From Alphaproteobacteria bacterium (GTDB lineage Bacteria; Pseudomonadota; Alphaproteobacteria; SP197): 64,000 nucleotides of DNA. Shown piece after piece: positions 2,877 to 57,645 of the stretch. Position numbers and translations under genes: made by a program. How positions within the stretch are numbered: the first letter of the stretch is position 1; each line of letters starts with the position of its first letter. Where the stretch lies: contig CBDBNO010000011.1 in the NCBI GenBank assembly GCA_965207785.1, forward strand, positions 140,664-204,663. Direction: 5' to 3'. The notes beneath the pieces were generated by a model. The model made no database searches and was not told where the DNA came from. It worked only from the letters and a program-made list of their open reading frames with translations.

Positions 2877-4257
2877 TCAGATTTGAGCGACCGGGCGGCC
2901 GAGGGGAACAGCGGATTCCGGGAACCCGCAGGGCAGAAATTCGCCGCGTCCCGGCTCGGCCCGTATCTCGCCGTCCGCCCAGACCACTTCCCCGCGCGAC
3001 AGCGTGATGGCCGGCCATCCCGTGATGTTCATTCCCTCGTACGGCGTGTAGTCGACGTTGTGGTGCAGCAGGTCGTTGCTGATGGTCACCTCCCGCGAAT
3101 CATCCCAGATGACGATGTCGGCGTCGCAACCGACTGCGATCGTGCCCTTTTGCGGATAGAGCCCATAGAGCTTGGCGGGTGTCGTGGCTGTCAGTTCCAC
3201 GAATCGCTCGAGGCTGATGATGTTCTTGCCGACTCCCTCCGAGAAGAGGAGCGGCATGCGGGTCTCGACGCCCGGCACACCGTTCGGGATCCAGCGAAAC
3301 GAGGCGTCTTCGCCGCGCATCTTCTTTCCGCCGGGACCCTCGAAACGGGTCGGGGCATGATCGGAAGAAAACACGTCGAAGGTTCCGTTGCGAAGCCCAT
3401 CCCAGATCACCTGCTGGTTGGCCTTGTCCCGGGGCGGCGGGCTGCAGACGCACTTGGCGCCTTCGAAGCCGGGCTTGTCGAGGTCATCCTCGGTAAGGAA
3501 CAGGTACTGCGGACAGGTTTCCGCAAACAGCTTGAGACCGCGGGCACGGGCCCTGTGGATTTCGTCCACCACGTCACGAGCGGAAACGTGCACCAGCAGT
3601 ATCGGCACATCCAGGAGCTCGGCCAGGGTGATGGCCCGGTGCGTGCCTTCGCGCTCGACGGGCCGCGGACGGGAATGGGCATGGTACTTCGGCGCGATCT
3701 TGCCCGACTGCTCCAGCCGATCGGTCAGCCAGCTGATGCAGTCGCCATTCTCGGCATGCACCATCACGAAAGCCCGTTCGCGGCGCGCCAGCGCCAGCAC
3801 GTCCAGGATCTCGCGGTCATTCAGCATGAGGCCGTCGTAGGTCATGTAGATCTTGAACGAGGTGTAGCCGTCTCGGATCAATCCCGGCATTTCCTGGCCC
3901 AGGACGTGCTCGTTGGGATCAACGACGATCATGTGAATCGCGTAGTCGGTCATCGCTCGGTTCTCGGCGCGTCCGCGGTACTCGTTCACGGCCTCCCTGA
4001 GACTCTGGCCCCTGAACTGCAGGGCAAAGGGAATCACCGTGGTCGTGCCGCCGGCAAGCGCCGAGCGCGTGCCGGTCAGAAAGTCGTCGGCGCAGACCGA
4101 TCCATCCCTGCTGGGCTGATCGATGTGACAGTGGCTGTCGATGCCACCGGGGGTCACCGTTCGCCCCTCGGCGTCGATCACATGATCGGCGCCTTCCAGT
4201 GAATCCGCCAGCGCCGCGATGCGGCCTTCGCGGATGCCGATGTCACACCTGACGACG
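2877..4257 (-). pseudogene. D-hydantoinase/dihydropyrimidinase, 3' body of a split gene; missing its first ~18 codons, which lie at 14708..14760
   Basis: Annotated ORF gives ...PGGIDSHCH...; cyclic-amidohydrolase fold (HxH, KIYM, DHAP motifs). In-frame upstream reading gives VVRCDIGIREGRIAALADSLEGADHVIDAEGRTV, preceded by TAG and no start codon. The first in-frame start is an internal GTG at ~4182. Confidence 0.75.
4241..4257. repeat. 17-bp direct repeat TGTCACACCTGACGACG, left junction (attL core) of the integrated element
   Basis: Exact copy at 14691..14707. Flanking bases differ on both sides. Lies inside hydantoinase codons AVVRCD on the minus strand. Confidence 0.65.
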
Positions 4258-4372
4258 CACCTTCGGTGCTAAACAACTGATACAACGTAACGTTTTTCTC
4301 TCTCATGTGCAACTGCGGGACGTTTCCGCCACGGATTCTCCCGCCTCTGCAACTCATGACGAGAGGGAATCG

Positions 4373-5497
4373 ATGGCCGCGACCAAACTCACCCAGGCGC
4401 GCTTGCACGCGCTCCGGCCCCGCAAGACCGTCCGCGATGTCCGCGACGCCGAACTCAGGGGATTCGGCGTCCGTCTCTATCCGTCAGGGCGCAAGTGCTT
4501 CTTCATCCACAGCCAACACGAGGGGAAGAGGGTCTGGAAGATCGTCGGCGATGCCGCGTGCCTGAGCGTGGAAGACGCCAGGACCAGGGCCCGCTCCATG
4601 CTGGCAGCCGGCCGGCACGGCACGTCGGCAGCATCGGATCACATCCTGTTCGAGGAGGCGGCCGAGGAAGTCTTCCGCCGCTACGCCAGGAACTGGAAGC
4701 CCGGGACGCTCAGGGTCAACCGGGGTTACTTCGCCAACCAGATTCTTCCCTGGTTCCGGGGACGGCCGATTGCGGCCATCACGGCTGTGGATGTCCGGGA
4801 GTGGTTCGCCTCTCTCCATGCCACGCCGGTGGCGGCCGACCGGTCCGCTCCGGTGCTGTCCGTCATCATGGCCCAGGCGGAGGCCTACGGATACCGTCCC
4901 GAGGGCTCCAACCCCTGCCAGGGCATCAGGCGCTACCGGCGCAAGGGCCGGGAGCGCTTTCTTTCGGACGAGGAAGTCCGCCGGCTCGGGAGGGCGCTGC
5001 GCCGTCACGAAGAGCAATCGGGGATGCATGTGGCGATCATCCGTCTTCTCCTGCTGACCGGGTGCCGCAGTGCTGAGATCGTGACGCTTCGCTGGAGGGA
5101 GTACAGGGACGGTCATCTCCATCTCGCGGACTCCAAGACGGGGCCGCGCATGGTCTGGCTGTCGTCTCCGGCACGGACGATCCTGGACCGGCAACCCCGG
5201 ACGTCGCCGTGGGTCTTTCCTTCGGCCCGGACCGGCAGGTCCGTCGCGGCGGACGCCGTCGGCAAGTTCTGGCGGCAGCTTCGTCTGGAGGCTGGCCTGC
5301 GCGATGTCAGGCTGCATGACCTGAGGCACACATACGCCAGCATTGCCGTCATGACGGGGGAGAACGTGCTCACCGTCGGCCGGCTTCTCGGCCACAACGA
5401 TCCCGGCACGACACTGAAGTACACGCACCTTGCCGACGACGCGGTCGCCACGGCGGCCGAGGCGATGGGGCCCCTTCTCGCGAATGCCGCGTCATGA
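4373..5497 (+). CDS. tyrosine recombinase/integrase, P4-like with N-terminal arm-binding (DUF4102-type) domain
   Basis: MAATKLTQARLHALRPRKTVRDVRDAELRGFGVRLYPSGRKCFFIH matches the DUF4102 N-terminus. Catalytic box LLLLTGCRSAEIVTLRW, HDLRHTYAS, LGHNDPGTTLKYTHL (R, H-x-x-R, Y all present). The annotated ORF starts at 4307, but ATG 4373 better fits the family N-terminus. Confidence 0.85.
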   Translation: MAATKLTQARLHALRPRKTVRDVRDAELRGFGVRLYPSGRKCFFIHSQHEGKRVWKIVGDAACLSVEDARTRARSMLAAGRHGTSAASDHILFEEAAEEVFRRYARNWKPGTLRVNRGYFANQILPWFRGRPIAAITAVDVREWFASLHATPVAADRSAPVLSVIMAQAEAYGYRPEGSNPCQGIRRYRRKGRERFLSDEEVRRLGRALRRHEEQSGMHVAIIRLLLLTGCRSAEIVTLRWREYRDGHLHLADSKTGPRMVWLSSPARTILDRQPRTSPWVFPSARTGRSVAADAVGKFWRQLRLEAGLRDVRLHDLRHTYASIAVMTGENVLTVGRLLGHNDPGTTLKYTHLADDAVATAAEAMGPLLANAAS

Positions 5498-6645
5498 ACC
5501 GCCGGACAAGACTGACCGATGCCGTGATCCGGCGTCTCAAGCCCGGTTCTCGGGAATACACGGTCCGCGATACCGTGGTGCCCTCGCTGGGAGTGCGCGT
5601 GCATCCCTCCGGCGGCCGCGCCTATGTCCACGTCGCCGCGGGGCGGAAGGCATCGCTGGGTTTCGTGGCGCTCCGCACGGTCGAGGAGGCCCGTCGGGAG
5701 AGCCGTGCGCTGCTGGCGGATGGCATGCCAAAGAGGACGGCGGCGGCGCTCTTCCGGGACTTCGTCGCCGGTCCGTGGCGCCAGTCCTGGGTCCACCGGT
5801 GCAAGCCGTCGACGATCAGGTGGCGCGACGGACATCTCGACAAACGCCTTCTGCCGGCATTCGGCCACCTGCGCCTCGACCGCATGTCGCCGGCCGCGGT
5901 GACGAGATGGTTCGACGATTACAGCAGGACCGCTCCGGCCAACGCCAACCACTGCCTCTCGACCCTGCGCCACATCTTCAATCATGCGCTCGCCTGCGGG
6001 CATGTCGCCGCGAACCCCGTCCGCGGCGTCAGGCCCAACCCGCGCCGGAAGATCACCCGCTTCCTCTCCCGGGAGGAACTCGAGCGGCTGCACCGCGTTC
6101 TCGATCGCCATGCCGGCGTCGCAGCCATCAGACCGTCGCACCGCGACCAGATCGACATCATCAGGCTTCTTCTCCTGACAGGCTGCCGCAGGAACGAGAT
6201 CGTCCGCCTTCGCCGGGACGAGGTGGCCGGAACCCGTCTCCGGTTGCGCGACAGCAAGACCGGCCCCAGAACGGTGTTCCTGAACGCCGAAGCCCGGTCC
6301 ATCCTCGAACCAAGGCTGAAGGGCAGCCGGGAGTATCTGTTCACGTCGCCAAAGGATGCCGGACGGCCGCTCAATGAGAGGCTCCCGGTCTGGTACGCCG
6401 TCCGCAAGGAGGCAGGGCTTGAAGACGTCCGCCTCCACGATCTCAGACACACATATGCCAGTCATGCGGTCATGCAGGGAACGCCGCTTCCCGTCGTGGC
6501 GAGGCTCCTTGGTCACAGCAGGACGGCCATGACGCTGCGCTACGCCCACACCGGAGATGCCGAGACCGCGGCCGCCGCCGAGCGGATCGGCCGCGTCATC
6601 GCCGGACTCTGCGGATGCGCCGGCGACTCCGGCGCACCCGCCTGA
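5494..6645 (+). CDS. second tyrosine recombinase/integrase, paralog of the upstream gene, translationally coupled
   Basis: ATG overlaps the int1 TGA (ATGA at 5494-5497). LLLLTGCRRNEIVRLRR, HDLRHTYASHAVM, LGHSRTAMTLRYAHT; same domain layout as int1. Confidence 0.85.
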   Translation: MNRRTRLTDAVIRRLKPGSREYTVRDTVVPSLGVRVHPSGGRAYVHVAAGRKASLGFVALRTVEEARRESRALLADGMPKRTAAALFRDFVAGPWRQSWVHRCKPSTIRWRDGHLDKRLLPAFGHLRLDRMSPAAVTRWFDDYSRTAPANANHCLSTLRHIFNHALACGHVAANPVRGVRPNPRRKITRFLSREELERLHRVLDRHAGVAAIRPSHRDQIDIIRLLLLTGCRRNEIVRLRRDEVAGTRLRLRDSKTGPRTVFLNAEARSILEPRLKGSREYLFTSPKDAGRPLNERLPVWYAVRKEAGLEDVRLHDLRHTYASHAVMQGTPLPVVARLLGHSRTAMTLRYAHTGDAETAAAAERIGRVIAGLCGCAGDSGAPA

Positions 6646-6646
6646 C

Positions 6647-6664
6647 CCCGGGGCGCAGGCCCCG
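6647..6664. terminator. GC-rich hairpin CCGGGGC-gcag-GCCCCGG between convergent int2 and the adhesin gene
   Basis: 7-bp perfect inverted repeat with a 4-nt loop in the 67-bp convergent intergenic gap. No U-tract, as is common in high-GC genomes. Confidence 0.3.
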
Positions 6665-6712
6665 GGGCCGCGCGGGACCGTCCGCATCCATGACGCGGCG
6701 ATCACCGCCGCC

Positions 6713-9700
6713 TCACCAGCGGATGGCGAGATCGACCCCGATGCCGTGCTCCGCCCTGGCCGTGCCGCTCTCCCGGCGCGTCACCTTCACCCCAAACGAC
6801 AGGTCGGGCGCGCTCGCGCCCTCCGGCGTCAAGCGCCAGCCGAGGCTCCAGTCGCGCACGCCCGTGGCGAGCCCGAGGCCCGCATGCGGGCTGCCGGTCC
6901 AGCGCCCGCCGAAGGCCGGCAGGCCGTACGCCGCCTCCACCGCCCAGCGGGAGGTCGCCTCGCTGCCGGTGCGGTCCTCCAGCGTCTGCGGCTGGAACAG
7001 CGCGTCGAGACCGCCGGTGGCCCGGCCGCCGAAGTCATGGCGCAGGCTGAGCGACGCGCCCCGCTTCGTCGCCGGGGCCGGGTCGTATGCCAGCGCCGCC
7101 GCGAAGCCGCGGTCCTTCAGGTCGTCGTTGCCATGTGCGATGAGCGTACGGCCCGACAGGTCGAGCATGAGGCCCATGCCCGGATCGCTCCACCTGACGC
7201 CGCCGCCGGTCTCCACCCCGAAGCCGGTCTCCGCATCGCCGCCGTCATGGCGCGCGCCAAGCTCCAGCTTCGGCACGAGCGTGCCGCCGCCGTCGAGCGC
7301 GACATGGTAGCGGCCCTCAAGGCCGACCCGGAGCCGCGTCGCGTCGGAGTCCGACGCCGCGAGCCGGGCCGTCTTCTCCGAGGAGGTCCGCGTCCACAAG
7401 GCGTCCGAGGTCACCGCCAGCGCCGGGCCGGAGCCTTCCTGCGGGGCTTGGAGCAGGTCGCCCCGCAGCCCCGCCGCCGCCATGCTCCAGCTCGTGTCCG
7501 CGCTGTAGCGGCCGCCCAGTTCGGTCTTCAGCGTCACCTCGCCGGTGCCGTAGCCGGCCGCGCCCCAGAGCTTCAACCGCTCCGATGCCTGGAAGGCCGC
7601 ATAGGGGACCGCCGCCGTCAGCGACGCCTCCACCGTGCCGTCGCCCTCCCGCACCGCGCCCCGGCACAGCTCGGCCGCCTCGGCCGGGCAGTCCTGCGAG
7701 GCGGCGCGGGCCGCGATGTCCGTGTCGCGGTAGTCGCCCTCGCCGTCGCTCTGCGCCAGCGCAAGGCCGACCAGCCACCTGCCCCGGGCATAGTCCGCCC
7801 CCAGCATGCCGGTGGTGACCGTGCCGTCGAGCGAGAAGGTGCCCTCAGCACCATCGAAGCGCGCTTGCGCCGCCCGGCCCCAGAACGCCATGCTGCCGCC
7901 CGAGGAGTCCTTCTCGCCCGTCAGCGAGAAGCTGGAGCCCAGCAGCGCGTCGCGCGCCGTCATGGTGCGCGACTGCGCCGGGGTTTGACCGAAGCCGATC
8001 CCGCCTGTCCCGGAGACCGATCCGGGGCCGCCCGCGCTGCCGCCGAAGCCGCGCGCGATCTCCGCCATGGCCAGCGCCGCCTCGCCGTCGGGAGACCCCG
8101 CGGACCCGAGGTCCGGCCCGCCGCTGCCGGAAGGCGCCGGGTTGAGGTTGACCGCCTGTCCGGCGATCGCGCCCTGCATGCCGGGCGTGCGCGGCGCGGA
8201 CATCCGCCCCGCGATCCCGTCCAGCGCCTGCTCCGCCACCGTGCGACCGAACCGCGCCAGCCACGCCGCCGGCATCGGGTCGTCGTTGACGATGGTGCCC
8301 ACCGCAACCCCGTCGCCGATAACCGCACCCCGCGCCTTCGACAGCACCACCTCGAAGGTCTCCGCCCCCTCGTCATGGCTGTCGTCGTAGATCCGGATCC
8401 ACACCACCTTCTCCGTCTCCCCCGCCTGGAACGTCAGGTCGGAGCTGCCCGGCGCGTAGTCCCGGCCCGGCTCCGCCGACACCGGCGTCGACGGCCGCGT
8501 CGAGACATACACCCGCACCGGCGCGGGCGCCGGCGACGACAGACTCACCGTGAACGGCATCACCGGCAGGCGGCCGCCCTCCTTCGCCGTCGAGTCGCCC
8601 ACCGACAGCGCAGGCACCGTCGAAGGCACGTCGTCGTCCTTCACCTCGACCGACGCCGAGGCCGGATCGCCCACCGTGTAGCCCGCGCCGGCCTCGACCG
8701 TCACCACCGCCGCGCCGTCCGGCTCGTCGGCGTCGTCGTTCACCGTGGCGACGATGAACGACGCCTCCGTCGCGTCATTCGGGATCGTCACCGTGGCCGG
8801 ACCCTCGTCCGCCGCCGCCACGTGGTCGCCGTCCCCGGTCTCGGAGACCGCGAGCGTCACCGTCAGGTCGGCGTCCGGCGCGCGGTCGGCGGTGAGCGTG
8901 AACACCGCATCGCCGCCCTCGCTCACCGAGGCCGCCTTCGCCGCGATCGTCACCACGGGCGGCGGCAGGTCGTCGTCGCGCACCGCGACCGTGGCGTAAG
9001 CCGAAGCGCCGACCGTGTAGCCGCTGCCGTCCGTCACCGTCGCCGTGACCGAGCCGTCCGGCTCGTCCGCGGCGTCGTCGGTCGTCGCCAGGGTCAGCGT
9101 CGCGCTGCCGGTCGTGGGGATGGTGACCGTCTGCGTCCCGGCGGTCACGCCCCAGTCGCCGTCGGCCGCCACGCTCACGCTGACCGCCAGGTCCGCCGCC
9201 GGGGCGGGGGTCGCCGTCAGCGTGAACACCGCATCGCCGCCCTCCGTCACCGAGGCCGCCTTCGCCGCGACGGTCACCTCGGGCAGGGCCGCGTCGTCGT
9301 CACGCACCGCCACGGTGCCCGACGCCGGGTCGCCCGCCGTCCAGCCGCTGCCGTCCGCCACCGTCACGGTGACCGAGCCGTCGGGCTCGTCCGCGGCGTC
9401 GTCGGTCGTCGCCAGGGTCAGCGTCGCGCTGCCGGACGTGGGGATGGTGACGGTCCGGCTGCCGGCGGTCACGCCCCAGTCGCCGTCGGCCGCCACCGTC
9501 ACGCTGACCGCCAGGTCCGCCGCCGGGGCCGGGGTCGCCGTCAGGGTGAACACCGCGTCGCCGCCCTCGGTCACCGCGCTTCCCGCCGAGACCGCGATCT
9601 CCGGCGGGGTCAGGGGCGGCGTGTCGGGCGGCGTGTCGGGCGCCGCCGCCAGCTTCTCCAGCGCCTCGACGATCCGCGGCCACAGCGGGCTACTGTATTT

Positions 9701-12694
9701 CTGCGCATTCGCCTTCGCCTCCGCCAGCGTGGTCGGCGTCAGGCCGGGATACTCCTCCACGCCGAACGCCACCAGCACGCGCCGCCAGCGCTTCACATGC
9801 GCCGCGCCGTGCTGCGTCTGCGCCGCCATCGCGCGCACCTCCGCGACCAGCGCCGGGTCCACCGCCGCAACCGCCGGCGCCGCATCGTCGTCGTCCCGCA
9901 CGGAGACCGTGCCGGAGCCGGACGAGCCCACCGTGTAGCCGCTGCCGGCCGCCACCGTCACGGTGACAGAGCCGTCCGGCTCGTCCGTGGAATCGTCGCC
10001 GGTCGTCAGCGTCAGCGTGGCGCTGCCCGACGCCGGGATGGTCACCGTTTGCGTGCCGGCGGCGACGCCCCAGTCGCCGTCCGACGCCACCGTCACGCTG
10101 ACCGCAAGGTCCGCCGCCGGGGCCGGGCTCGCCGTCAGGGTGAACACCGCATCGCCGCCCTCCGTCACCGCGCTCCCCGCCGACACCGCGATCTCCGGCG
10201 TCTGCTGTTGCGGCTGGTCCTGCCCCTGCTCAAGCGACGACAGGTACACCGAGGCCGCCCAGAACGGGCTCGACGGCCACTTCGCCGCGTTCTCGTGGAT
10301 CTCGGAGGCCGGCATCGCCTCCTCCGGGCTCGCCGTATAGCCGATCGACGCCAGCACCCGGTTCCACTTCCTGATGTGCGCGGGATTGCCCTTCACCGCC
10401 TTGTTCGCCGGGTTGTCCCGCGCCGCGATCAGATGGTCCACCACCGTCTGGTAGTCGGTCCAGTCCGGCGCGCCCTGCCCGGGCTCGTGGTTGAGGATCC
10501 TGATCGCCGAGCGCACCGGCGTGAACGGCTGATAGCCGCCGCTCGCCTCCAGATGCACCGTGACCCACTCGCCGCTGTCCTCCGCCGAATCGTCGATAAT
10601 CGTCACCGGAATGACCGCCGTCGTCGCGCCCGGCGGCACCGTGACCGTCGACGGAACCGTGTAGTCGACGCCCCGCGTCGCATTGCCCGACAGCCTGTAG
10701 TTCAGGGTGAAGTCCGCACTCGGCGCCGGGTTGACCGCCACCACCAGGTTCACCGTCCCGGCCGTGCTCTCCCGCACCTGCCGCGAGTTGGTCACGAAGG
10801 ACACCTTGCGGGCGACCGAGTCGTCGTCGCGCACCGTCGCCTCCGCCGCCGCCCGGTGCGGGAAGGTGTGCCCGCCCACGGACAAGCCGTTCGTGTCGAT
10901 GGTGTAGCCGAAACGGCTCCCCGCCGGCACCACCGTCGTGACCGTCCCGTCCGCCGGCACCGTGCCGTCGGCCCGCGCCAGCGACGCCCGCACCGTGCAG
11001 TCCGGCTCCGCGGTGCCGTCGTTCACCGTCGGCACGGTCAGGACCGTGCTCCCGACCCGCGGCGCGAAGTAGACCTCGTGGCGCTTCGCGTTCCCCGGCG
11101 CCAGGCAGTTGCCGGTCTGCCCCACCTTCAGATGCACCGTGAACGGCCCCTGCGCCGGCGACGGGGCACTGACCTCGAAGTGGACGGGCTTCCCCTCCGC
11201 CACGCCGCCGTCGAGCGCCTGCGGGTGCCACTGCCTGACCGTGACCGTCGGGACGACGTTGCCCGCCGAGCCGTCCGGGCCGTCCTTGATCGTGATCCAG
11301 TACGGATCGTTGGTGACGACCCCGAAGGGCGGCGGGTTGCCTTCGCCCCAGCTGCCGACCGGGCCGGAGAACATCAGCATCCTGCGCACGTCGCTCTCGA
11401 CCAGGGTGGAAGGCGAGATCCGGAGAAGCGCAGTCTTGCTCTTCTCGCCGACGGCAAAGGTCAGGGGGGTGAGCCACTGGTGTGCATGGACGCCCGGCTG
11501 CACGTAGGCGTTCACGGCGATCTGCCGGGTCGCCGCCACGGGGATGAACCCCACCCCCTTCTCCAGCGCCGGGCGGACGAGCCGCGCATTGATGATGATG
11601 TCGCTGCCGGCGGGTGCCTCCGTAATCTCGCATTCGCGGCCGGTGCACGAGCCGCCGACAGGAACAATGCTGTCCACGATGACCAGCGGCGGGCCCGGCG
11701 AGGGCGTGTAGGGCAGCTCCTCCAGCAGCCTGATCTCGCCGTCGCCCGAGCGGCTCGACGAGGCCACCGTCACCCCCGTCGAGGTCACCGTGCCCAGGCT
11801 CACCGTCACCGTCTCGTCGTCGTCGGTGTTGTCCGGAGCGGCCTGCACCTCCAGCGTGGCCGCGGCGACCGACGGGCCGGTGAAGGTCACCGTGCTCCCG
11901 GACAGCGACACCCCCGTGAACGTGCTCGTCAGGAACAGGCTGAAGTCCGCGGGCCGCGAGGCGCCGGCGAAGTTCAGCGGAACCGTCACCGTCTCGCCGC
12001 TCACCAGCGCACGGCTCAGCGCCACGCGGATCTGCGCCACGTTGTTGGCGTCGTCCTCAACCGCAAGGTCGTCCGGGATCGACAGGGTGAGGGTGAAGGG
12101 TGGCTTGACCACGCCGCCGAGGCTGATTTTCAGGGGTACCGTGACGGTGGCCCATGCGCCTGTTGAATTCCATTGTCTACGCAAAGCGTTGTTACCGATG
12201 CTCCAGCCGGCCAGGGCTCCGCTGTCCTCGTTGTTCGAATCCGTGCTGCGTAGGTCCGACGAACCTCTATTGGAGCTCATATCGATCACAAGGAAGTACG
12301 TGGTACCGGCCGCAAGGTCGATGCCCGTGCTCGTGAAGGTCAGCGTCTGGTCCGAGTTGGAGTTGGTGAAGGCGGGGTTGGTCAGGGTCCCGAGAGAACT
12401 GCCCGGAGACCCGCTGGATTCGGAGTGGATGCTGGCGGTGAGCTGCGAAGAAGTAATATTGCTGATCGTGGAAAATTCCACTTCGACGCTGCGCAGGCTG
12501 TAACCTTCGCTGTTGCTGCCGGTCGTGAACGCCATGGCGTAATCGGTGCTCAAACCATATGCGGCTCCGTCTGCCTGACCGACGTTGCTGACAAAGGTCT
12601 GCGTCGTCTGCGCCTCGGCCCCGGTCGGCAGGGCGGCCAGCAGCGGCAGGGCGAGCAGCGCGGCGGCGAGGACCGGGCGCAGGCCGCGCCCCAA
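6713..12694 (-). CDS. giant type Va autotransporter adhesin (1,993 aa) with multiple Calx-beta domains and C-terminal beta-barrel translocator
   Basis: TTG start. Signal peptide MGRGLRPVLAAALLALPLLAALPTGAEA/QT. Repeated Calx-beta motifs (TEGGDAVFTLT...DDAADEPDGSVTV; GNATRGVDYTVP...IIDDSAEDSGEWVTVHL). C-terminal ~300 aa is a classic autotransporter beta-domain (MAFWGRAAQARFDG...LGADYARGRWLVGLALAQSDGEGDY...GIGVDLAIRW) ending in W. Confidence 0.85.
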   Translation of the reverse strand: MGRGLRPVLAAALLALPLLAALPTGAEAQTTQTFVSNVGQADGAAYGLSTDYAMAFTTGSNSEGYSLRSVEVEFSTISNITSSQLTASIHSESSGSPGSSLGTLTNPAFTNSNSDQTLTFTSTGIDLAAGTTYFLVIDMSSNRGSSDLRSTDSNNEDSGALAGWSIGNNALRRQWNSTGAWATVTVPLKISLGGVVKPPFTLTLSIPDDLAVEDDANNVAQIRVALSRALVSGETVTVPLNFAGASRPADFSLFLTSTFTGVSLSGSTVTFTGPSVAAATLEVQAAPDNTDDDETVTVSLGTVTSTGVTVASSSRSGDGEIRLLEELPYTPSPGPPLVIVDSIVPVGGSCTGRECEITEAPAGSDIIINARLVRPALEKGVGFIPVAATRQIAVNAYVQPGVHAHQWLTPLTFAVGEKSKTALLRISPSTLVESDVRRMLMFSGPVGSWGEGNPPPFGVVTNDPYWITIKDGPDGSAGNVVPTVTVRQWHPQALDGGVAEGKPVHFEVSAPSPAQGPFTVHLKVGQTGNCLAPGNAKRHEVYFAPRVGSTVLTVPTVNDGTAEPDCTVRASLARADGTVPADGTVTTVVPAGSRFGYTIDTNGLSVGGHTFPHRAAAEATVRDDDSVARKVSFVTNSRQVRESTAGTVNLVVAVNPAPSADFTLNYRLSGNATRGVDYTVPSTVTVPPGATTAVIPVTIIDDSAEDSGEWVTVHLEASGGYQPFTPVRSAIRILNHEPGQGAPDWTDYQTVVDHLIAARDNPANKAVKGNPAHIRKWNRVLASIGYTASPEEAMPASEIHENAAKWPSSPFWAASVYLSSLEQGQDQPQQQTPEIAVSAGSAVTEGGDAVFTLTASPAPAADLAVSVTVASDGDWGVAAGTQTVTIPASGSATLTLTTGDDSTDEPDGSVTVTVAAGSGYTVGSSGSGTVSVRDDDDAAPAVAAVDPALVAEVRAMAAQTQHGAAHVKRWRRVLVAFGVEEYPGLTPTTLAEAKANAQKYSSPLWPRIVEALEKLAAAPDTPPDTPPLTPPEIAVSAGSAVTEGGDAVFTLTATPAPAADLAVSVTVAADGDWGVTAGSRTVTIPTSGSATLTLATTDDAADEPDGSVTVTVADGSGWTAGDPASGTVAVRDDDAALPEVTVAAKAASVTEGGDAVFTLTATPAPAADLAVSVSVAADGDWGVTAGTQTVTIPTTGSATLTLATTDDAADEPDGSVTATVTDGSGYTVGASAYATVAVRDDDLPPPVVTIAAKAASVSEGGDAVFTLTADRAPDADLTVTLAVSETGDGDHVAAADEGPATVTIPNDATEASFIVATVNDDADEPDGAAVVTVEAGAGYTVGDPASASVEVKDDDVPSTVPALSVGDSTAKEGGRLPVMPFTVSLSSPAPAPVRVYVSTRPSTPVSAEPGRDYAPGSSDLTFQAGETEKVVWIRIYDDSHDEGAETFEVVLSKARGAVIGDGVAVGTIVNDDPMPAAWLARFGRTVAEQALDGIAGRMSAPRTPGMQGAIAGQAVNLNPAPSGSGGPDLGSAGSPDGEAALAMAEIARGFGGSAGGPGSVSGTGGIGFGQTPAQSRTMTARDALLGSSFSLTGEKDSSGGSMAFWGRAAQARFDGAEGTFSLDGTVTTGMLGADYARGRWLVGLALAQSDGEGDYRDTDIAARAASQDCPAEAAELCRGAVREGDGTVEASLTAAVPYAAFQASERLKLWGAAGYGTGEVTLKTELGGRYSADTSWSMAAAGLRGDLLQAPQEGSGPALAVTSDALWTRTSSEKTARLAASDSDATRLRVGLEGRYHVALDGGGTLVPKLELGARHDGGDAETGFGVETGGGVRWSDPGMGLMLDLSGRTLIAHGNDDLKDRGFAAALAYDPAPATKRGASLSLRHDFGGRATGGLDALFQPQTLEDRTGSEATSRWAVEAAYGLPAFGGRWTGSPHAGLGLATGVRDWSLGWRLTPEGASAPDLSFGVKVTRRESGTARAEHGIGVDLAIRW

Positions 12695-12861
12695 GCGGCG
12701 GGCGGCATGGCGGACGCCAGCAGCGGCGCGGGCGGCGGGAAGGTCGCGACTGTCGGGAGTGTCGTGATGCCCCCGGTTAGAGAGACCGGGGCAGGCAGAA
12801 GAAGAAGCGTCAGGCGGGGAGGCTAGCGGGCGAAAGCGGTCCCGTACGCAAGACGCAGGTT

Positions 12862-12979
12862 GGGCGACCCGGCGACCCGGCGACCCGGCGACCCGGCGAC
12901 CCGGCGACCCGGCGACCCGGCGACCCGGCGACCCGGCGACCCGGCGACCCGGCGACCCGGCGACCCGGCGACCCGGCGA
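12862..12979. repeat. perfect tandem repeat of the 8-bp unit GGCGACCC (about 14.7 copies), 168-285 bp upstream of the adhesin start codon
   Basis: Read directly: gggcgaccc ggcgaccc ... ggcgacc. It produces artefactual repeat peptides (PGDPATRR / GSPGRRVA) in two ORF-track entries. Confidence 0.9.
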
Positions 12980-13321
12980 CCATTATACCGCCGGCATCAT
13001 CCCGGTTTGTCAAGCCGTCGGGTGAGCGGATGTCGCTCGCCCCGCCGTCCGGAGCCCCCGCGAGCGCAACCTTCGCCGCGCGCAAAATGTCACCGATCCT
13101 GTCCAACATGGTCATCGCATTGGTCCCCAACTCTGTCGCCCGGCAGGCCCCGCAAGGCACACGCCCGCCGGTCAACGCCTGTTCCATCGGCAATTCGTAA
13201 GCGGATTCCGGCGGCAACGCAAACACGGATCGTCCAAGACCACCCTGATCGGCGAGCTGTCGTCGGGTTCGGCCACGTTGAGCGCACACCGGCGCCAGCA
13301 TCATCTGGCCATCGTGCCAGC

Positions 13322-13555
13322 CCTGCGAACGCCCGTTCGGAGACCCGGTACCTCTCGCGCAACTCGGCCGTCATCATGGCACGGTTGAAGAGCCACGCTG
13401 ACCTGCTCGACATGGTCTCGGGGGCGATGGTGCCGGTCATCAACGGTTGCTGCAATCTCTACCACCCCTGCCAGGCACTCGCGGACGTGCTGACTATCGC
13501 GGCGGACCGGCGCGGGGATCCCGGTGGCGCACGCCGCCTGACCTACGTCGGCGGG
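13322..13555 (+). pseudogene. ornithine/aspartate carbamoyltransferase internal fragment (~78 codons), gene relic
   Basis: ETRYLSRNSAVIMARLKSHADLLDMVSGAMVPVINGCCNLYHPCQALADVLTIAADRRGDPGGARRLTYVGG matches the OTC core (VPVING..HPCQALAD...YVGD). Sequence on both sides is unrelated. No start or C-terminal domain. Confidence 0.55.
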
Positions 13556-13694
13556 TTGCGGTTGAGCGCGCGATCGACCAGCAGCTTCGACATCGACACG
13601 CCCTCGCGCTCCGCCAGGGCGCGGATGCGCTCCCGTTCGAGACGGCTGCACGAGATCGAGTGCATGGTGGCTCTCTCCTCGACGCGCCGGCCCG

Positions 13695-14027
13695 TCATGG
13701 TCCCGGCCTCCCGGCGTCCTGCCGCGCCTGGAATTCCCGGGCCGCAAGGTAGAGGAACGACAGCGCCTCCATGGCGGTGACGTCGCTCCCCGGCAAGGGC
13801 TCCATCAATTCCTCGAGAAGAAGCAGGGTGCGGTTCACCCGATTGAGAAGGTCGCGCTGTTCGGATTCCGAGAGCACCAGGCGCATGTCGTCCTCGTCCT
13901 CCAGGGCGCAGGCGACCATGAAGCGCGAGATCGGCATCTTCGCCGCCTTGGCCCGCCGGCCGATCTCCGCCCAGTCGCTCGGGCGGCAGCTGACGCTGAA
14001 CAGCTGGTTGCGTCTCACGGTCGTGAC
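13695..14027 (-). CDS. small ribbon-helix-helix (CopG/MobC-N-terminal-like) DNA-binding protein, ~111 aa, GTG start
   Basis: VTTVRRNQLFSVSCRPSDWAEIGRRAKAAKMPISRFMVACAL... fits the RHH pattern (beta-strand, then A..G.S.S.y.r). Paralog of the next gene. Start inferred by alignment to the paralog. Confidence 0.45.
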   Translation of the reverse strand, partial: VTTVRRNQLFSVSCRPSDWAEIGRRAKAAKMPISRFMVACALEDEDDMRLVLSESEQRDLLNRVNRTLLLLEELMEPLPGSDVTAMEALSFLYLAAREFQARQDAGRPGP

Positions 14028-14347
14028 TCCTTCCCCTCGATCTCGACCTCGGCCTTCAGCAGGGACTCGATCTCCTCCTCGATCGCCTGCCAGGCCTCCG
14101 CTTCTCCGGCGCGCTCGAAGCGATGGCGCTCGATGCGGGCCAGCACCATGAGGTGATGCGCAAGGCGCCACTGCAGGTCGGCCGGAAGACCGGCCGGTTG
14201 GGGTGGTCTTGTGGTCAGCATCTGCTGCACAGCGTAGCGCGAGATGGGCATGTCGAGGGCCTTCGCGCGCTCGCCGATCCGGGCCCACTCGCTGTCTGAT
14301 GCCATGATGGTGCGCGCCTTGCGCCGCGGATCCTTCGCGTTCATCAT
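14015..14347 (-). CDS. small ribbon-helix-helix DNA-binding protein, ~111 aa, paralog of the downstream gene
   Basis: MMNAKDPRRKARTIMASDSEWARIGERAKALDMPISRYAVQQML...; shares the SDxEWAxIGxRAKAxxMPISRxxV core with the neighbour. Overlaps it by ~12 nt. Confidence 0.45.
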   Translation of the reverse strand: MMNAKDPRRKARTIMASDSEWARIGERAKALDMPISRYAVQQMLTTRPPQPAGLPADLQWRLAHHLMVLARIERHRFERAGEAEAWQAIEEEIESLLKAEVEIEGKESRP

Positions 14348-14690
14348 GGACTCGGTGGCCGGTGGTGGGAACGACGTAAGGGGGCCGTGATGGTGTGTTC
14401 TGGCGGATGTTCGCGTGATGTACTGGACAGAATCACCATGGTCTGCATTGGTATCCATTGTGTGTGATTGTCATGCATTGACGGTGTTCCGGAGCATATA
14501 GGCGATGGAAGAAAGTCTACGTATGACTTCCCCGAATGCAACTGTGGCTCTACGGATCGCTATGCATGTATAGATCTGATGTCGTCCGTGGTACTTGACA
14601 TGGCCGTATTCCGCGCGTAATTAGCGTGACTTGGAGAGAGAGATGCCTTTTGGTGTTTCGATTACATGTATACATGTCGTCAAATTTCTC

Positions 14691-14707
14691 TGTCACACCT
14701 GACGACG
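14691..14707. repeat. 17-bp direct repeat TGTCACACCTGACGACG, right junction (attR core)
   Basis: Exact match to 4241..4257. Preceded by a 230-bp AT-rich tract. Confidence 0.65.
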
Positions 14708-14760
14708 GCGGCTGATGTCGCCACCCTACCTCCCCGAACGATGGTATCGAATCTGCTCAC
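14708..14760 (-). pseudogene. displaced 5' end of the hydantoinase gene (start codon plus ~18 codons)
   Basis: Minus strand: AGGAGA ribosome-binding site, GTG at 14760..14758, then SRFDTIVRGGRVATSAAVVRCD running into the 17-bp repeat. Joined to 4240.., this gives MSRFDTIVRGGRVATSAAVVRCDIGIREGRIAALADSLEGADHVIDAEGRTVTPGGIDSHCH, a textbook hydantoinase N-terminus. An upstream in-frame TGA fixes the start. Confidence 0.65.
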
Positions 14761-45066: not shown

Positions 45067-46203
45067 CTACCAGGTGCGGCCGCGGCCCTCGATGGGCCAG
45101 ATGTCGACGAGACGGTCGCCGCGGACGCAGTGATAGATGTCGTGGAGGTTGACCGTGGGATCGCAGTGGGGCGTGACGCATGTCACGACGTCGCCGACGG
45201 CGGGTCCGTTGGTTCCCGGCGGGACCACGATCCTGCCGTGCTCGTCACCCATGAATTCGTAGAGGGACCCTTCCGCGGCGCCGTCGGCGACGTCCGGCAC
45301 AGGTCCGTCCGTGGCAAAGGCCTTGATGCCGGCATCGATGGTGGCGGCGCCGGCCATGTTGGCCGAGATCACCGTCGACTGCACGAAGAGGGCGGTCCGG
45401 AAGGGGCCGGGGGTGCCGTCCCGGCGCATCACGGCATTGTACTCGACATCCATGAAGATCGCCGAACCCACCTGGATGTCGGTAAAGACACCGCAGTCCG
45501 AATCGTGATCATAGGTGCCTGTACCGCCGCCGGTCACGATCCCGGGAGAACCAGCGACCGTGGTGACGGCGCGCTGTGCCTCGTCGAGGTAGGCAGCAAC
45601 CTCGGCGGCCTCCCTCTCGCGCGCGGCGCAGTCGGCAATGTGCTGGATATCGCCGGCGTAGCACTGCAGTCCGGCGAGTTCGAGCGAGGGCCGGCGGACG
45701 ATCTCCCTTGCCAGCGCGACGGCATCCGCAATCGAGGAAACTCCGGTGCGGTGGAGACCGATGCCGAGATCGATGAGAACCCTCATCGGCTTCTGACGGC
45801 CGGCTGCAAGGGATGCGAGGCGATCGACGACCGTGGCGTTGTCGACCACGAGGATCAGTTCCTCTGCCGTGTCATTGAGCGCCAGCACCCGTTCGAGCTT
45901 GTCGGCCGTGACGATGGGCGAGGTGATGAGGATGCGGCCGATACCCTCGCGGACCAGGGCGTCGGCCTCGCCGAGCTTGGCGACACAGATGCCCGTCGCT
46001 CCGGCATCAAGCTGGAGTCGTGCGATTTCCGCGCACTTGTGGGTCTTGGCGTGGGGCCGCCAGCCGGCCGGCGTCCGGCTGAAGTGGGCTGCCAGGGTCC
46101 TGATGTTGTGTTCGAATGCATCGAGATCCAGCACGAGGGCGGGTGTCGCCAGGCGCCACCGGTTCTCTCCCTTGAGGTGGCGGTTGATGGAAAGGCCGGT
46201 CAT
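45067..46203 (-). CDS. PLP-dependent alanine-racemase-fold enzyme, DSD1/D-threonine aldolase/D-serine dehydratase-like
   Basis: Start near MTGLSINRHLKGENRWRLATPALVLDLDAFEHNI (family-typical). PHAKTHKC PLP-lysine motif. Confidence 0.6.
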   Translation of the reverse strand: MTGLSINRHLKGENRWRLATPALVLDLDAFEHNIRTLAAHFSRTPAGWRPHAKTHKCAEIARLQLDAGATGICVAKLGEADALVREGIGRILITSPIVTADKLERVLALNDTAEELILVVDNATVVDRLASLAAGRQKPMRVLIDLGIGLHRTGVSSIADAVALAREIVRRPSLELAGLQCYAGDIQHIADCAAREREAAEVAAYLDEAQRAVTTVAGSPGIVTGGGTGTYDHDSDCGVFTDIQVGSAIFMDVEYNAVMRRDGTPGPFRTALFVQSTVISANMAGAATIDAGIKAFATDGPVPDVADGAAEGSLYEFMGDEHGRIVVPPGTNGPAVGDVVTCVTPHCDPTVNLHDIYHCVRGDRLVDIWPIEGRGRTW

Positions 46204-57536: not shown

Positions 57537-57645
57537 GCAAGGGAAGCAGGATGTCGCCGCAGCAAAGTCTCCGATCTGCGCTGGCGCGACATGGGCCAAG
57601 GCGTCATCACGCTCAGCGATTCGAAGACCGGGCCGGGCAGACAAG
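57537..57645 (+). pseudogene. tyrosine-integrase fragment homologous to the catalytic-box region of the island integrases
   Basis: AREAGCRRSKVSDLRWRDMGQGVITLSDSKTGPGRQ, against int1 TGCRSAEIVTLRWREYRDGHLHLADSKTGPRM and int2 TGCRRNEIVRLRRDEVAGTRLRLRDSKTGPRT. Only ~36 codons remain. Confidence 0.5.

What the first reader, a model, noticed from the sequence alone, without database searches (positions are those of the whole stretch)
4373..6645. Two intact, translationally coupled tyrosine integrases in tandem
Two paralogous P4-like integrases sit head to tail, with the second ATG inside the first stop (ATGA). Each has an arm-binding N-domain and both retain the catalytic Arg (TGCR), the HDLRHTYAS box and the tyrosine (TLKYTHL / TLRYAHT). 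Most integrative elements carry a single integrase. Tandem tyrosine recombinases recall recombinase-in-trio (RIT) elements or Tn554 TnpA/TnpB. Here there are two, they are co-transcribed, and the insertion target is the 5' end of an enzyme gene. This may represent a heteromeric or two-step recombinase system with unusual target specificity.
Basis: partly seen in the sequence, partly recalled or inferred. Interest (0 to 1): 0.7.

Follow-up and report, generated by a model that had tools for sequence, protein, structure and literature searches.

The report
Conserved two-integrase module of mobile islands
Two different but related integrase genes, always found together and overlapping, sit at the left end of a 10.4-kb mobile island that has split a dihydropyrimidinase gene; the same pair recurs in many Alpha- and Gammaproteobacteria, and I found no description of it.

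Summary
intA (4373-5497) and intB (5494-6645) overlap by ATGA, are 38% identical, and both keep the full R-K-H-R-H-Y catalytic set.

They are the end module of a 10,450-bp island bounded by a 17-bp direct repeat (4241-4257 and 14691-14707). The island splits a dihydropyrimidinase gene at codons 19-24. A relative's genome holds the intact gene, with one copy of the 17-mer.

The pairing is old and conserved:
- 78 of 80 related loci have IntA followed directly by IntB.
- All six catalytic residues are invariant in 59 of 59 copies of each protein.
- The two proteins co-diverge (r = 0.89).
- Shewanella oneidensis MR-1, Vibrio and Aurantiacibacter plasmids carry an overlapping pair; the MR-1 genes are IntA- and IntB-type.

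The "5' end of an enzyme gene" target is not a family trait. Insertion sites are diverse and share only ACACC, followed by 6-7 variable bases and an element-borne inverted repeat (CGCACC-N3-GGTGCT). Near-identical modules sit at different sites and carry different cargo.

Best reading: an obligate two-subunit integrase acting on an asymmetric core site, with loose target choice. That the two proteins work as a heteromer is inferred, not shown. The pair is not a RIT, Tn554, SE or GInt member. I rate it a new variant of a known kind.

The parts
4241..4257 (+). attL: left copy of the 17-bp direct repeat TGTCACACCTGACGACG. It contains the family-invariant ACACC (4245-4249) and the 6-7 nt variable spacer, the presumed crossover region.
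   Evidence: This is the only repeat longer than 12 nt between 4150-4420 and the rest of the window. The related empty site holds a single copy. ACACC is invariant in 73 of 73 aligned loci.
4257..4269 (+). Element-borne inverted repeat GCACC-TTC-GGTGC. This is the first conserved sequence of the element and a candidate core-type binding site.
   Evidence: It is exact in 28 of 80 loci at the same distance from the intA ATG. The loop varies. Compensated variants occur in L015 and L031 (GCACT..AGTGC). Homology between near-identical modules starts here.
4258..4372 (+). Conserved left arm and leader of intA. It holds ..ACTGA..ACGT.., TTTTTCTCTCTC (4293-4304) and two TGCAAC(T) motifs, and its purine-rich Shine-Dalgarno region can pair with an upstream CUCCC.
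   Evidence: Alignment of 81 upstream regions. Imperfect inverted-repeat relation to the right end. Folding results are only suggestive.
4373..5497 (+). intA: tyrosine integrase, 374 aa, with arm-binding (DUF4102), core-binding and catalytic domains.
   Evidence: R232, K255, H315, R318, H341 and Y350 are invariant in 59 of 59 orthologues.
5494..6645 (+). intB: paralogous tyrosine integrase, 383 aa. Its start codon overlaps the intA stop (ATGA).
   Evidence: The catalytic hexad is invariant in 59 of 59 orthologues. It co-diverges with IntA.
6713..12694 (-). Cargo: 1993-aa secreted repeat protein with a choice-of-anchor R domain, Calx-beta repeats and an autotransporter-like C-terminal region.
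   Evidence: Pfam and NCBIfam hits. The same gene sits in the same position next to intB in L036, L045 and L051.
12810..13304 (-). Conserved hypothetical ORF with five GSPGRRVA repeats, carried as cargo.
   Evidence: Translation. Homologues lie at the equivalent place in L036, L043, L045 and L051. No Pfam family.
13695..14458 (-). Two tandem paralogous small ribbon-helix-helix-like genes (about 14458..14015 and about 14030..13695). They are candidate directionality, regulatory or oriT-accessory proteins.
   Evidence: Weak NikA-like and MobA hits below the cut-offs. They are conserved next to the right end in L036 and L051, and one copy in L029.
14560..14690 (+). Right arm of the element. It holds a conserved TTGACA (14595-14600), GGAGAGAGAGA (14633-14643, inverted relative to the left-arm TCTCTCTC) and the terminal ..TTTCTCTGTC abutting ACACC.
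   Evidence: Comparison of the right ends of the window, L036, L045, L051 and L029. The promoter scan does not call a promoter here.
14691..14707 (+). attR: right copy of the 17-bp direct repeat.
2877..4257 (-). Displaced body of the dihydropyrimidinase gene. The reading frame is open up to a stop at about 4269 inside the element and has no start codon.
   Evidence: It aligns with the intact gene in L082 starting from the repeat.
14691..14760 (-). 5' stub of the same dihydropyrimidinase gene (GTG start, MSRFDTIVRGGRVATSAAVVRCD), left at the far side of the island.
   Evidence: Joining the two flanks restores a 477-aa ORF. That ORF is 97% identical to an intact protein, P0241.

Best explanation
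intA and intB are the recombination module of a family of integrative genomic islands. The window's copy is 10,450 bp and reads attL - intA - intB - surface-protein cargo - two small RHH genes - attR.

Shown:
- The island is a discrete insertion flanked by a 17-bp repeat.
- It entered a dihydropyrimidinase gene that is intact in a close relative.
- The two integrases are always together, in the same order and tightly coupled.
- Both keep all catalytic residues, and they co-diverge.
- They differ mainly in their DNA-binding domains.
- The junctions have an asymmetric layout: (GTC)ACACC on the target and right-end side, then 6-7 variable bases, then CGCACC-N3-GGTGCT on the element's left end.
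- Insertion sites are many and unrelated apart from ACACC.

Inferred:
- The two proteins are made in fixed proportion from one coupled message.
- They act together as a hetero-oligomer, comparable to XerC/XerD, with each paralogue bound to one of the two unlike half-sites and responsible for one pair of strand exchanges.
- Their arm-binding domains read the imperfectly inverted subterminal repeats.
- ACACC plus the first spacer bases is the crossover region that must match between element and target.
- The rest of the target is only loosely read, so the island inserts in a transposon-like way at many sites.
- The RHH proteins set direction or help mobilisation.
For: Insertion and boundaries:
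- A 17-bp direct repeat lies at 4241 and 14691.
- The two halves of the split gene rejoin to a 477-aa ORF.
- The intact orthologue (97% identical) in OZ244844.1 has a single copy of the 17-mer, and both window flanks align to it.
- Four further elements of the same layout, 9.7-10.3 kb long, have repeats made of ACACC plus 5-9 nt.

Pair conservation:
- 78 of 80 loci have IntA followed directly by IntB.
- 56 of 59 complete pairs have a 4-nt overlap or a 3-nt gap.
- The same contigs recur in both homologue lists.
- In Shewanella MR-1 the first gene is IntA-type (43% against 29%) and the second is IntB-type (39% against 34%). Vibrio and Aurantiacibacter plasmids also carry overlapping pairs.

Both proteins look active and act as a unit:
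- The catalytic hexad is invariant in 59 of 59 copies of each.
- Pairwise identities of IntA and IntB correlate at r = 0.89; 0 of 2000 Mantel permutations reach this.
- Between IntA and IntB, the arm-binding and core-binding domains are 26-29% identical and the catalytic domain 46%. IntA's core-binding domain is its best-conserved part, at 72%.

Site asymmetry and loose targeting:
- Searches give the junction alignment and position counts. ACACC is present in 73 of 73 loci, with no conservation further left.
- Modules 96-99.7% identical sit at different sites. Their spacers differ in the bases next to ACACC and agree in the bases next to CGCACC.
- Target genes are unrelated to one another.
Against: - No experiment or structure shows that the two proteins interact.
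- The core is not a classical inverted repeat, so the half-site assignment is a guess.
- No excised circle or attP junction was found.
- In ten loci an orphan 3' half of tRNA-Met follows intB. This could mean that IntB once had, or still has, a site of its own.
- Near-identical modules lose homology inside the IntB tail and carry different cargo. Gene conversion between resident copies could explain that as well as recent movement.
- A 17-bp match between this element and its target is longer than a purely promiscuous element would need.
Confidence: 0.6

Rival explanations
1. Two independent integrases, each with its own attachment site. IntA would serve the ACACC-type site upstream of intA. 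IntB would be a classical P4-like tRNA integrase with a site downstream of intB. The island could then integrate by either route, and no hetero-oligomer is needed.
For: Ten loci carry the 3' half of tRNA-Met, from the anticodon loop to CCA, directly after intB. In L027 and L065 the match breaks in the T-arm, as at a crossover. Homology between related modules ends at the 3' end of intB.
Against: The window's subfamily and most loci have no tRNA fragment after intB. No intact tRNA-Met lies within 10 kb of the fragments. In L029 the fragment lies inside an element bounded by ACACC repeats. Strict order, start-stop coupling and co-divergence at r = 0.89 are more than two independent systems would need.
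Confidence: 0.2
2. One paralogue is the working integrase. The other has become an accessory factor (architectural, directionality or regulatory), like Tfp/GinC in SEs and GInts, which keep the recombinase fold.
For: Multi-recombinase elements with non-catalytic recombinase-fold partners exist (SE Tfp and GInt GinC; PMC10214605). The window element has no recognisable Xis-type gene.
Against: Tfp and GinC have lost the RHRY residues. Here all six catalytic residues are invariant in 59 of 59 copies of both proteins, across 46-100% (IntB) and 54-100% (IntA) sequence identity.
Confidence: 0.12
3. Chance adjacency. The pair would be a recent local duplication, or two islands stacked at one site, each leaving its integrase.
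For: Stacking of islands at one att site is common (PMC7192596).
Against: The proteins are only 38% identical. Order and overlap are the same in 78 of 80 loci and in Gammaproteobacteria. Orthology runs across classes. There is one pair of att repeats, and the empty site shows a single insertion event.
Confidence: 0.01
4. A housekeeping Xer-like pair for chromosome or plasmid dimer resolution, or an inversion switch, rather than an island integrase.
For: The best NCBIfam hits are Xer models, and XerC/XerD is the classical heteromeric pair.
Against: Scores are far below the Xer cut-offs (65-80 bits against 220-335 bits). Both proteins have an arm-binding domain. At least 11 of the 80 listed loci come from a single genome. 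The pair lies at the edge of an insertion that is absent from a relative.
Confidence: 0.02

Closest known systems
P4/SXT-type island and phage integrases (IntSXT subgroup of Smyshlyaev et al. 2021, PMC8138268)
   Same: Same protein architecture: an N-terminal DUF4102 arm-binding domain, a SAM-like core-binding domain and a catalytic domain with R-K-H-R-H-Y. The gene sits at the edge of the island next to att.
   Different: Known members work as a single integrase and go to one conserved gene (a tRNA gene, prfC, and so on). Here there are two co-evolving paralogues and many unrelated sites that share only ACACC.
Tn554 (TnpA, TnpB, TnpC)
   Same: Two adjacent tyrosine recombinases, both needed in Tn554, an asymmetric element and a short core sequence at the junctions (as summarised in PMC3414803 and PMC10214605).
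   Different: Tn554 has one ordinary and one large (about 630 aa) recombinase plus TnpC. They are simple recombinases without DUF4102, the hosts are Firmicutes, and there is one preferred site. None of this matches.
RIT (recombinase-in-trio) elements
   Same: Overlapping tyrosine recombinase genes that stay together as a unit, with several copies per genome.
   Different: RITs have three simple recombinases (RitA, RitB, RitC), are about 3.5 kb, carry no cargo and have terminal inverted repeats. A RIT-like trio is in fact inserted inside intB in L006 as a separate element.
SEs and GInts (IntA-Tfp-IntB-Srap; GinA-D)
   Same: Integrative elements whose movement needs more than one tyrosine recombinase made from a coupled operon at one end. 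They have imperfect terminal inverted repeats and a 6-bp junction spacer that partly follows the target (PMC10214605).
   Different: Those need four conserved genes, including a non-catalytic recombinase-fold protein and a coiled-coil factor, and one of the recombinases is large. No counterpart of either extra gene lies in or next to the pair here.
XerC/XerD
   Same: Two paralogous tyrosine recombinases, each bound to one half of an asymmetric site and each exchanging one pair of strands. This is the model proposed here for how the pair works.
   Different: Xer proteins lack arm-binding domains, act on dif and are single-copy housekeeping genes. Scores to the Xer models are far below cut-off.
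Tn916 / CTnDOT / NBU-type elements
   Same: Tyrosine-recombinase elements that insert at many sites defined by a short motif next to a variable spacer that can be inherited from the target.
   Different: Those use a single integrase of other subgroups plus Xis-type factors, and their junction spacers are usually not direct repeats. Here the repeats were exact in the five elements with unrelated flanks whose two ends are known.
dusA-specific integrases (PMC4482086)
   Same: DUF4102-type integrases that insert into the 5' end of a protein-coding gene.
   Different: They act as a single integrase, always target dusA, and the element restores the gene's 5' end. Here the gene is left without a start codon, and the 5' position is not general.

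Membership tests
Tyrosine recombinases with arm-binding domain, IntSXT/P4-like subgroup | Catalytic domain with R-K-H-R-H/W-Y | tested here: met
   Phage_integrase E 7e-19 and 5e-20. All six residues are present, and invariant in 59 orthologues of each protein.
Tyrosine recombinases with arm-binding domain, IntSXT/P4-like subgroup | N-terminal DUF4102 (Arm-DNA-bind_3) domain | tested here: met
   IntA scores 30.6 bits against a cut-off of 27. IntB scores 19.5 bits, below the cut-off, but aligns with IntA from residue 4, and several IntB orthologues carry the precomputed PF13356 hit.
Tyrosine recombinases with arm-binding domain, IntSXT/P4-like subgroup | A single integrase directing the element to one conserved gene | tested here: not met
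   Two coupled paralogues. Sites are diverse.
RIT elements | Three adjacent overlapping recombinases of the RitA, RitB and RitC families | tested here: not met
   Only two genes are present. The next gene is a convergent cargo gene.
RIT elements | Simple recombinases without an arm-binding domain, in a compact element of about 3.5 kb with no cargo | tested here: not met
   The DUF4102 domain is present. The element is 10.45 kb and carries cargo.
Tn554-like transposons | One ordinary and one large (>600 aa) recombinase plus TnpC | tested here: not met
   The proteins are 374 and 383 aa and of equal architecture. No third coupled gene follows.
SE / GInt elements | Four-gene core including a non-catalytic recombinase-fold protein (Tfp/GinC) and Srap/GinD | tested here: not met
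   intA and intB overlap directly with nothing between them. The only GmtZ hit is 19.6 bits against a cut-off of 600.
XerC/XerD | Score above the curated equivalog cut-offs; no arm domain; single-copy housekeeping gene | tested here: not met
   65-73 bits against 330-335. An arm domain is present. At least 11 of the 80 listed loci come from one genome.
Integrative genomic island (site-specific insertion) | Discrete insertion with direct repeats, absent from an otherwise collinear relative | tested here: met
   17-bp repeats. The empty site in L082 has one copy, and both flanks align to it.
Integrative genomic island (site-specific insertion) | Excision to a circle with an attP junction | tested here: inconclusive
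   One metagenome scan for a junction-type pattern found only two ordinary attL sites. Read-level data could not be examined with these tools.
Heteromeric recombinase (works like XerC/D) | Physical association and division of labour between the two proteins | not testable with these tools
   Only indirect support is available: coupling, co-divergence, divergent DNA-binding domains and an asymmetric core.

The most novel reading that the evidence does not exclude
The IntA-IntB pair defines a further, undescribed class of tyrosine-recombinase mobile element, alongside ICE/IME, Tn554, RIT, SE and GInt. It would be an obligate hetero-oligomer of two arm-binding integrases that reads an asymmetric core. 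It would need only ACACC plus a few matching bases in the target, and so would move whole cargo islands in a transposon-like way. It is common and multi-copy in uncultured Alphaproteobacteria and present in tractable hosts such as Shewanella oneidensis MR-1.
Probability: 0.35. Interest if true: 0.8.

Novelty: new variant of a known kind. Interest (0 to 1): 0.62.

Why it matters
How elements with several tyrosine recombinases divide the work is still unsettled for Tn554, RITs, GInts and SEs (PMC10214605). This pair is the simplest such case. It has two proteins of the same, well-understood lambda/P4-type architecture, clear ends, a short invariant target motif, and relatives in bacteria that can be grown and manipulated. 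Those features would make the question directly testable.

The pair is also a practical marker. Annotation pipelines call both genes "site-specific integrase" and miss that they bound islands carrying surface proteins, restriction systems, porins or polysaccharide genes, and that these islands can knock out host genes, as here. A recombinase that needs only about 5-7 fixed bases in its target could interest genome engineers. None of this is established until both proteins are shown to be needed.

Tried and rejected
- BIM "bipartite modules" of Van Houdt et al. 2012. I recalled these as two recombinases. The paper shows they are one recombinase plus an SMC-domain protein, so they are not this.
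- A 2.4-kb minimal element made of the pair alone. This was suggested by homology between near-identical modules ending at intB. I rejected it as the general unit: the window's gene halves lie 10.45 kb apart; L036, L045, L051 and L029 have the same layout with repeats at 9.7-10.3 kb; and the interrupted genes in L034, L060 and L072 do not resume after intB.
- tRNA targeting. The window's only tRNA (46040) is unrelated, and most related loci have no tRNA near the junction.
- 5'-end-of-gene targeting as a family rule. Rejected.
- Exact repeats of 12 nt or more within 10 kb. These were found for few loci. Many elements are probably longer than the DNA fetched, so the right ends of most loci remain unmapped.
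- Promoter calls at either end. The consensus scan found none, so the outward TTGACA at the right end stays a conjecture.
- A consensus RNA structure for the intA leader. RNAalifold predicted none on the MAFFT alignment.
- A search for a circular junction in metagenome contigs found nothing.
- One look-up of the second pair on the window's own contig (P0012) found no record.
- Seven literature searches and five papers found no description of the pair. The library lacks most subscription journals, so prior description cannot be excluded.
Full report
**1. The observation**

The window has two same-strand ORFs, 4373..5497 and 5494..6645, and the second ATG lies inside the first stop codon (gcgtcATGAacc). 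The proteins (374 and 383 aa) align over their full length at 38% identity (E 2e-61). Both match Pfam Phage_integrase, the SAM-like/central core-binding domains and the DUF4102 arm-binding domain. The arm-domain score is above the cut-off in IntA and below it in IntB. Both carry TGCR, SKTG, HDLRH, LGH and the catalytic Tyr. The ATG at 4373 is preferred over the GTG at 4307 because nearly all orthologue clusters are 373-375 aa long.

**2. The pair sits at the edge of a mapped insertion**

Left of intA, the minus-strand dihydropyrimidinase ORF ending at 2877 stays open up to a stop at about 4269 and has no start codon.

A seed search between 4150-4420 and the whole window gave one repeat longer than 12 nt: TGTCACACCTGACGACG, at 4241-4257 and 14691-14707. 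Just right of the second copy, on the minus strand, lies GTG AGC AGA TTC ..., which encodes MSRFDTIVRGGRVATSAAVVRCD. Removing 4258-14707 restores an uninterrupted 477-aa ORF.

A protein 97% identical to that reconstruction, also 477 aa, is encoded intact in the 4.13-Mb genome OZ244844.1. That genome has a single copy of the 17-mer. The window's right flank aligns up to and through it, and the left flank aligns from it onward.

So a 10,450-bp element inserted at codons 19-24 of the gene and inactivated it. No start codon or in-frame fusion is supplied from the element side.

**3. Content of the element**

- intA and intB.
- A convergent 1993-aa surface protein with a choice-of-anchor R domain and Calx-beta repeats.
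- A conserved repeat-containing ORF at 12810-13304.
- A fragment of a carbamoyltransferase gene.
- Two tandem small genes with weak, sub-threshold similarity to NikA/MobA ribbon-helix-helix proteins.
- The right arm.

The same order (intA, intB, large surface protein, repeat ORF, RHH genes) recurs in L036, L045 and L051, where IntA is only about 61% identical to the window's. Those three elements are 10.05-10.3 kb long and are bounded by repeats of ACACC plus 5 nt. L029 (9.7 kb) has a 14-nt repeat and one RHH gene next to its right end.

**4. The pairing is conserved and old**

Each protein has thousands of homologues. The best 120 clusters of each are at least 64% identical to the query, and the same contigs appear in both lists. 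These include a second pair on the window's own 654,708-bp contig.

A scan of one genome per species with an IntA alignment returned 80 loci. Nearly all are from uncultured Alphaproteobacteria, and 11 come from the single genome OZ220705.1.
- In 78 of 80 loci an IntB-type frame begins within about 30 nt of the end of IntA, on the same strand. The two exceptions are a contig end and one decayed copy.
- Among 59 complete pairs (58 loci plus the window), 23 have the 4-nt overlap and 33 a 3-nt gap.
- All six catalytic residues are invariant in 59 of 59 IntA and 59 of 59 IntB sequences, although identities go down to 54% and 46%.
- Pairwise identities of IntA and IntB correlate at r = 0.89, and 0 of 2000 Mantel permutations reach this. 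No pair of loci is discordant.
- The two paralogues differ most in the arm-binding (26%) and core-binding (29%) domains and least in the catalytic domain (46%). IntA's core-binding domain is its most conserved part.

The pair is not confined to these MAGs. The Shewanella oneidensis MR-1 megaplasmid has two overlapping integrase genes (SO_RS22330 and SO_RS22335). The first is clearly IntA-type (43% against 29%) and the second IntB-type (39% against 34%). Vibrio europaeus and Aurantiacibacter atlanticus plasmids have overlapping pairs as well. The duplication therefore predates the spread of the pair across two proteobacterial classes.

**5. The DNA sites**

An alignment of the 200 nt upstream of intA in all loci shows no similarity until about 130 nt before the ATG. 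From there every locus reads (C)ACACC, then 6-7 variable nt, then CGCACC-N3-GGTGCT-AA, followed by a conserved leader.
- ACACC is present in 73 of 73 alignable loci. The base before it is C in 41, and the base after it is A in 34. Nothing further left is conserved.
- The inverted repeat GCACC-N3-GGTGC is exact in 28 loci. Its loop varies, and two lineages have the compensated form GCACT...AGTGC. Other variants are not compensated.
- In the window the 17-bp repeat ends exactly where this inverted repeat begins.
- In the five elements with unrelated flanks whose two ends are known (window, L029, L036, L045, L051), the repeat always covers ACACC and the adjacent spacer bases. The right end reads ...TTT..C.GTC before ACACC. 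L047's 13-nt repeat lacks the leading A. In L006 and L010 the repeat is long because the element carries a copy of the target porin gene, and it stops in or at the spacer.
- The two arms carry imperfectly inverted copies of a GAGAGAGAAAACG-like motif 65-80 nt from each end.

The core is therefore asymmetric. The side shared with the target (ACACC) and the side carried by the element (CGCACC-N3-GGTGCT) are unlike each other.

**6. Target choice**

Translating the flanks shows insertions in many contexts:
- just upstream of, or a few codons into, genes (an ABC permease, an old-yellow-enzyme-type reductase, a CoA-transferase, a peptidase);
- in mid-gene (a polyketide synthase, a type IV coupling protein, a substrate-binding protein, a DExH helicase exactly at DELHT);
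- near 3' ends (a Kef-type antiporter, an RND transporter);
- in IS630 and IS66 transposase genes;
- upstream of the reverse transcriptase of a group II intron;
- at base 7 of a tRNA-Pro gene;
- in the signal-peptide codons of porin genes, a site reused by six loci.

Modules that are 96-99.7% identical at the nucleotide level lie at different sites, several of them in the same genome. Their homology begins at ACACC/CGCACC. Their spacers differ in the bases next to ACACC but agree in the bases next to CGCACC, for example AACAAG against CTCAAG, and GCGGGA against ACGGGA. This fits a crossover in or just after ACACC, with the left part of the spacer coming from the target.

**7. How it most likely works**

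The steps shown are listed in sections 2-6. The following steps are inferred.
- One coupled message yields IntA and IntB in fixed proportion.
- They assemble as a hetero-oligomer on an asymmetric core, with one paralogue on each unlike half-site, as XerC and XerD do on dif.
- The arm-binding domains read the inverted subterminal repeats.
- ACACC and the first spacer bases are the exchanged region and must match.
- The remaining target contacts are weak, which gives many usable sites.
- The RHH proteins at the right end are candidates for directionality control or for an oriT-accessory role.

I put this at 0.6. That the pair is the recombination module of a mobile island is close to certain. 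That both proteins are needed and act together is the uncertain part.

**8. Rival explanations**

- Two independent integrases with two sites (0.2). In its favour, ten loci carry an orphan 3' half of tRNA-Met just after intB, and in two of them the match breaks in the T-arm. Against it, most loci and the window lack this fragment, no intact tRNA-Met is nearby, and the fragment lies inside an ACACC-bounded element in L029.
- One paralogue turned accessory (0.12). This is unlikely given the perfect retention of the active site in both proteins, unlike Tfp and GinC.
- Chance adjacency or a recent duplication (0.01), and a Xer-like housekeeping role (0.02). Both are contradicted.

**9. Comparison with known systems**

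By architecture both proteins belong to the DUF4102-bearing IntSXT/P4 group (PMC8138268), but that group is known for single integrases with one conserved gene target.

A 2023 review of the field lists five groups of tyrosine-recombinase elements: ICE/IME, SE, GInt, RIT and Tn554 (PMC10214605). The defining features of the four multi-recombinase groups were checked and not met:
- RIT: three simple recombinases, with no arm domain and no cargo.
- Tn554: one large recombinase plus TnpC.
- SE and GInt: a four-gene core with a non-catalytic fold protein.

BIMs are one recombinase plus an SMC-domain protein (PMC3414803). No close solved structure exists. Seven literature searches found no description of this pair, but the library is incomplete.

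**10. Verdict**

This is a real, conserved and apparently undescribed two-integrase module. It is a new variant among multi-recombinase tyrosine elements rather than a member of any named family. Interest is 0.62. The finding is not ordinary, the family is large and reaches tractable hosts, and it offers a simple system for an open mechanistic question. The key claim, joint action of the two proteins, remains untested.

Noticed in passing
L006 12085-15268 (also L066 and L068, same genome OZ220705.1): The IntB orthologue is split at residue ~224 by a ~3.6-kb insert. In L006 the insert carries three overlapping tyrosine recombinase ORFs (413, 314 and 361 aa), which looks like a RIT element that has inserted into intB. 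L066 and L068 show the same split, but their inserts were not read.
   Followed up: partly
L006 7978-9872 and 16638-18588; also L010, L014, L017, L020, L030: One subfamily inserts in the signal-peptide codons of a porin gene. In L006 it carries its own porin plus sulfotransferase copy at the right end, so integration fuses the chromosomal promoter and first ~17 codons to the incoming porin and displaces the resident one. This amounts to an allele swap. A second, decayed pair in inverted orientation abuts a third porin copy.
   Followed up: partly
L027, L029, L039, L043, L046, L063, L064, L065, L071, L072, just downstream of intB: An orphan 3' half of tRNA-Met (CTCATAACCTGAAGGTCGCAGGTTCAAATCCTGCCCCCGCAACCA) lies here, often with a terminator-like hairpin. 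In L027 and L065 the match stops in the T-arm. ARAGORN called no tRNA-Met in any of the ten loci.
   Followed up: partly
L012/L016, L034/L035, L021/L024 around 12216-12260: Near-identical modules lose homology abruptly inside the C-terminal tail of IntB (after ..AAERIG), so related elements encode different IntB tails and unrelated cargo. The cause is unknown.
   Followed up: partly
window 4335-4372 and the equivalent leader in related loci: The purine-rich ribosome-binding region of intA can pair with an upstream CUCCC/CCCC stretch, with the invariant UGCAAC in the loop. This could be a translational control hairpin. Single-sequence z-scores are significant in only 2 of 7 cases, and no consensus fold was obtained.
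   Followed up: partly
window 13340-13502 (+): A fragment matching the end of the carbamoyl-phosphate-binding domain of aspartate/ornithine carbamoyltransferase (E 7e-12) lies inside the island between the repeat ORF and the RHH genes. It looks like a gene remnant picked up as cargo.
   Followed up: no
window 12860-13000: Five tandem copies of a 24-nt unit, read as GDPATRRP on the plus strand and GSPGRRVA on the minus strand, lie inside a conserved hypothetical ORF of the island. Similar repeats occur in L036, L043 and L045.
   Followed up: no
window 57549-57635 (+): A short integrase-like fragment (29 aa, 52% identical to IntA residues 230-258 around the TGCR box) lies in a stretch that looks decayed. 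It sits next to what looks, by eye, like the C-terminal part of an ATPase gene.
   Followed up: no
window 46040-46132: The only tRNA in the window, tRNA-Ala(GGC), is called at 93 nt, which is unusually long for a bacterial tRNA-Ala.
   Followed up: no
L072 13581-18538; L034 12746-20559: Cargo of related elements includes what look, from the ORF translations (no domain search was run), like a type III restriction-modification pair (894-aa helicase subunit and 757-aa methyltransferase) and a polysaccharide/cell-envelope gene set interspersed with IS elements. The family appears to carry defence and surface functions.
   Followed up: no
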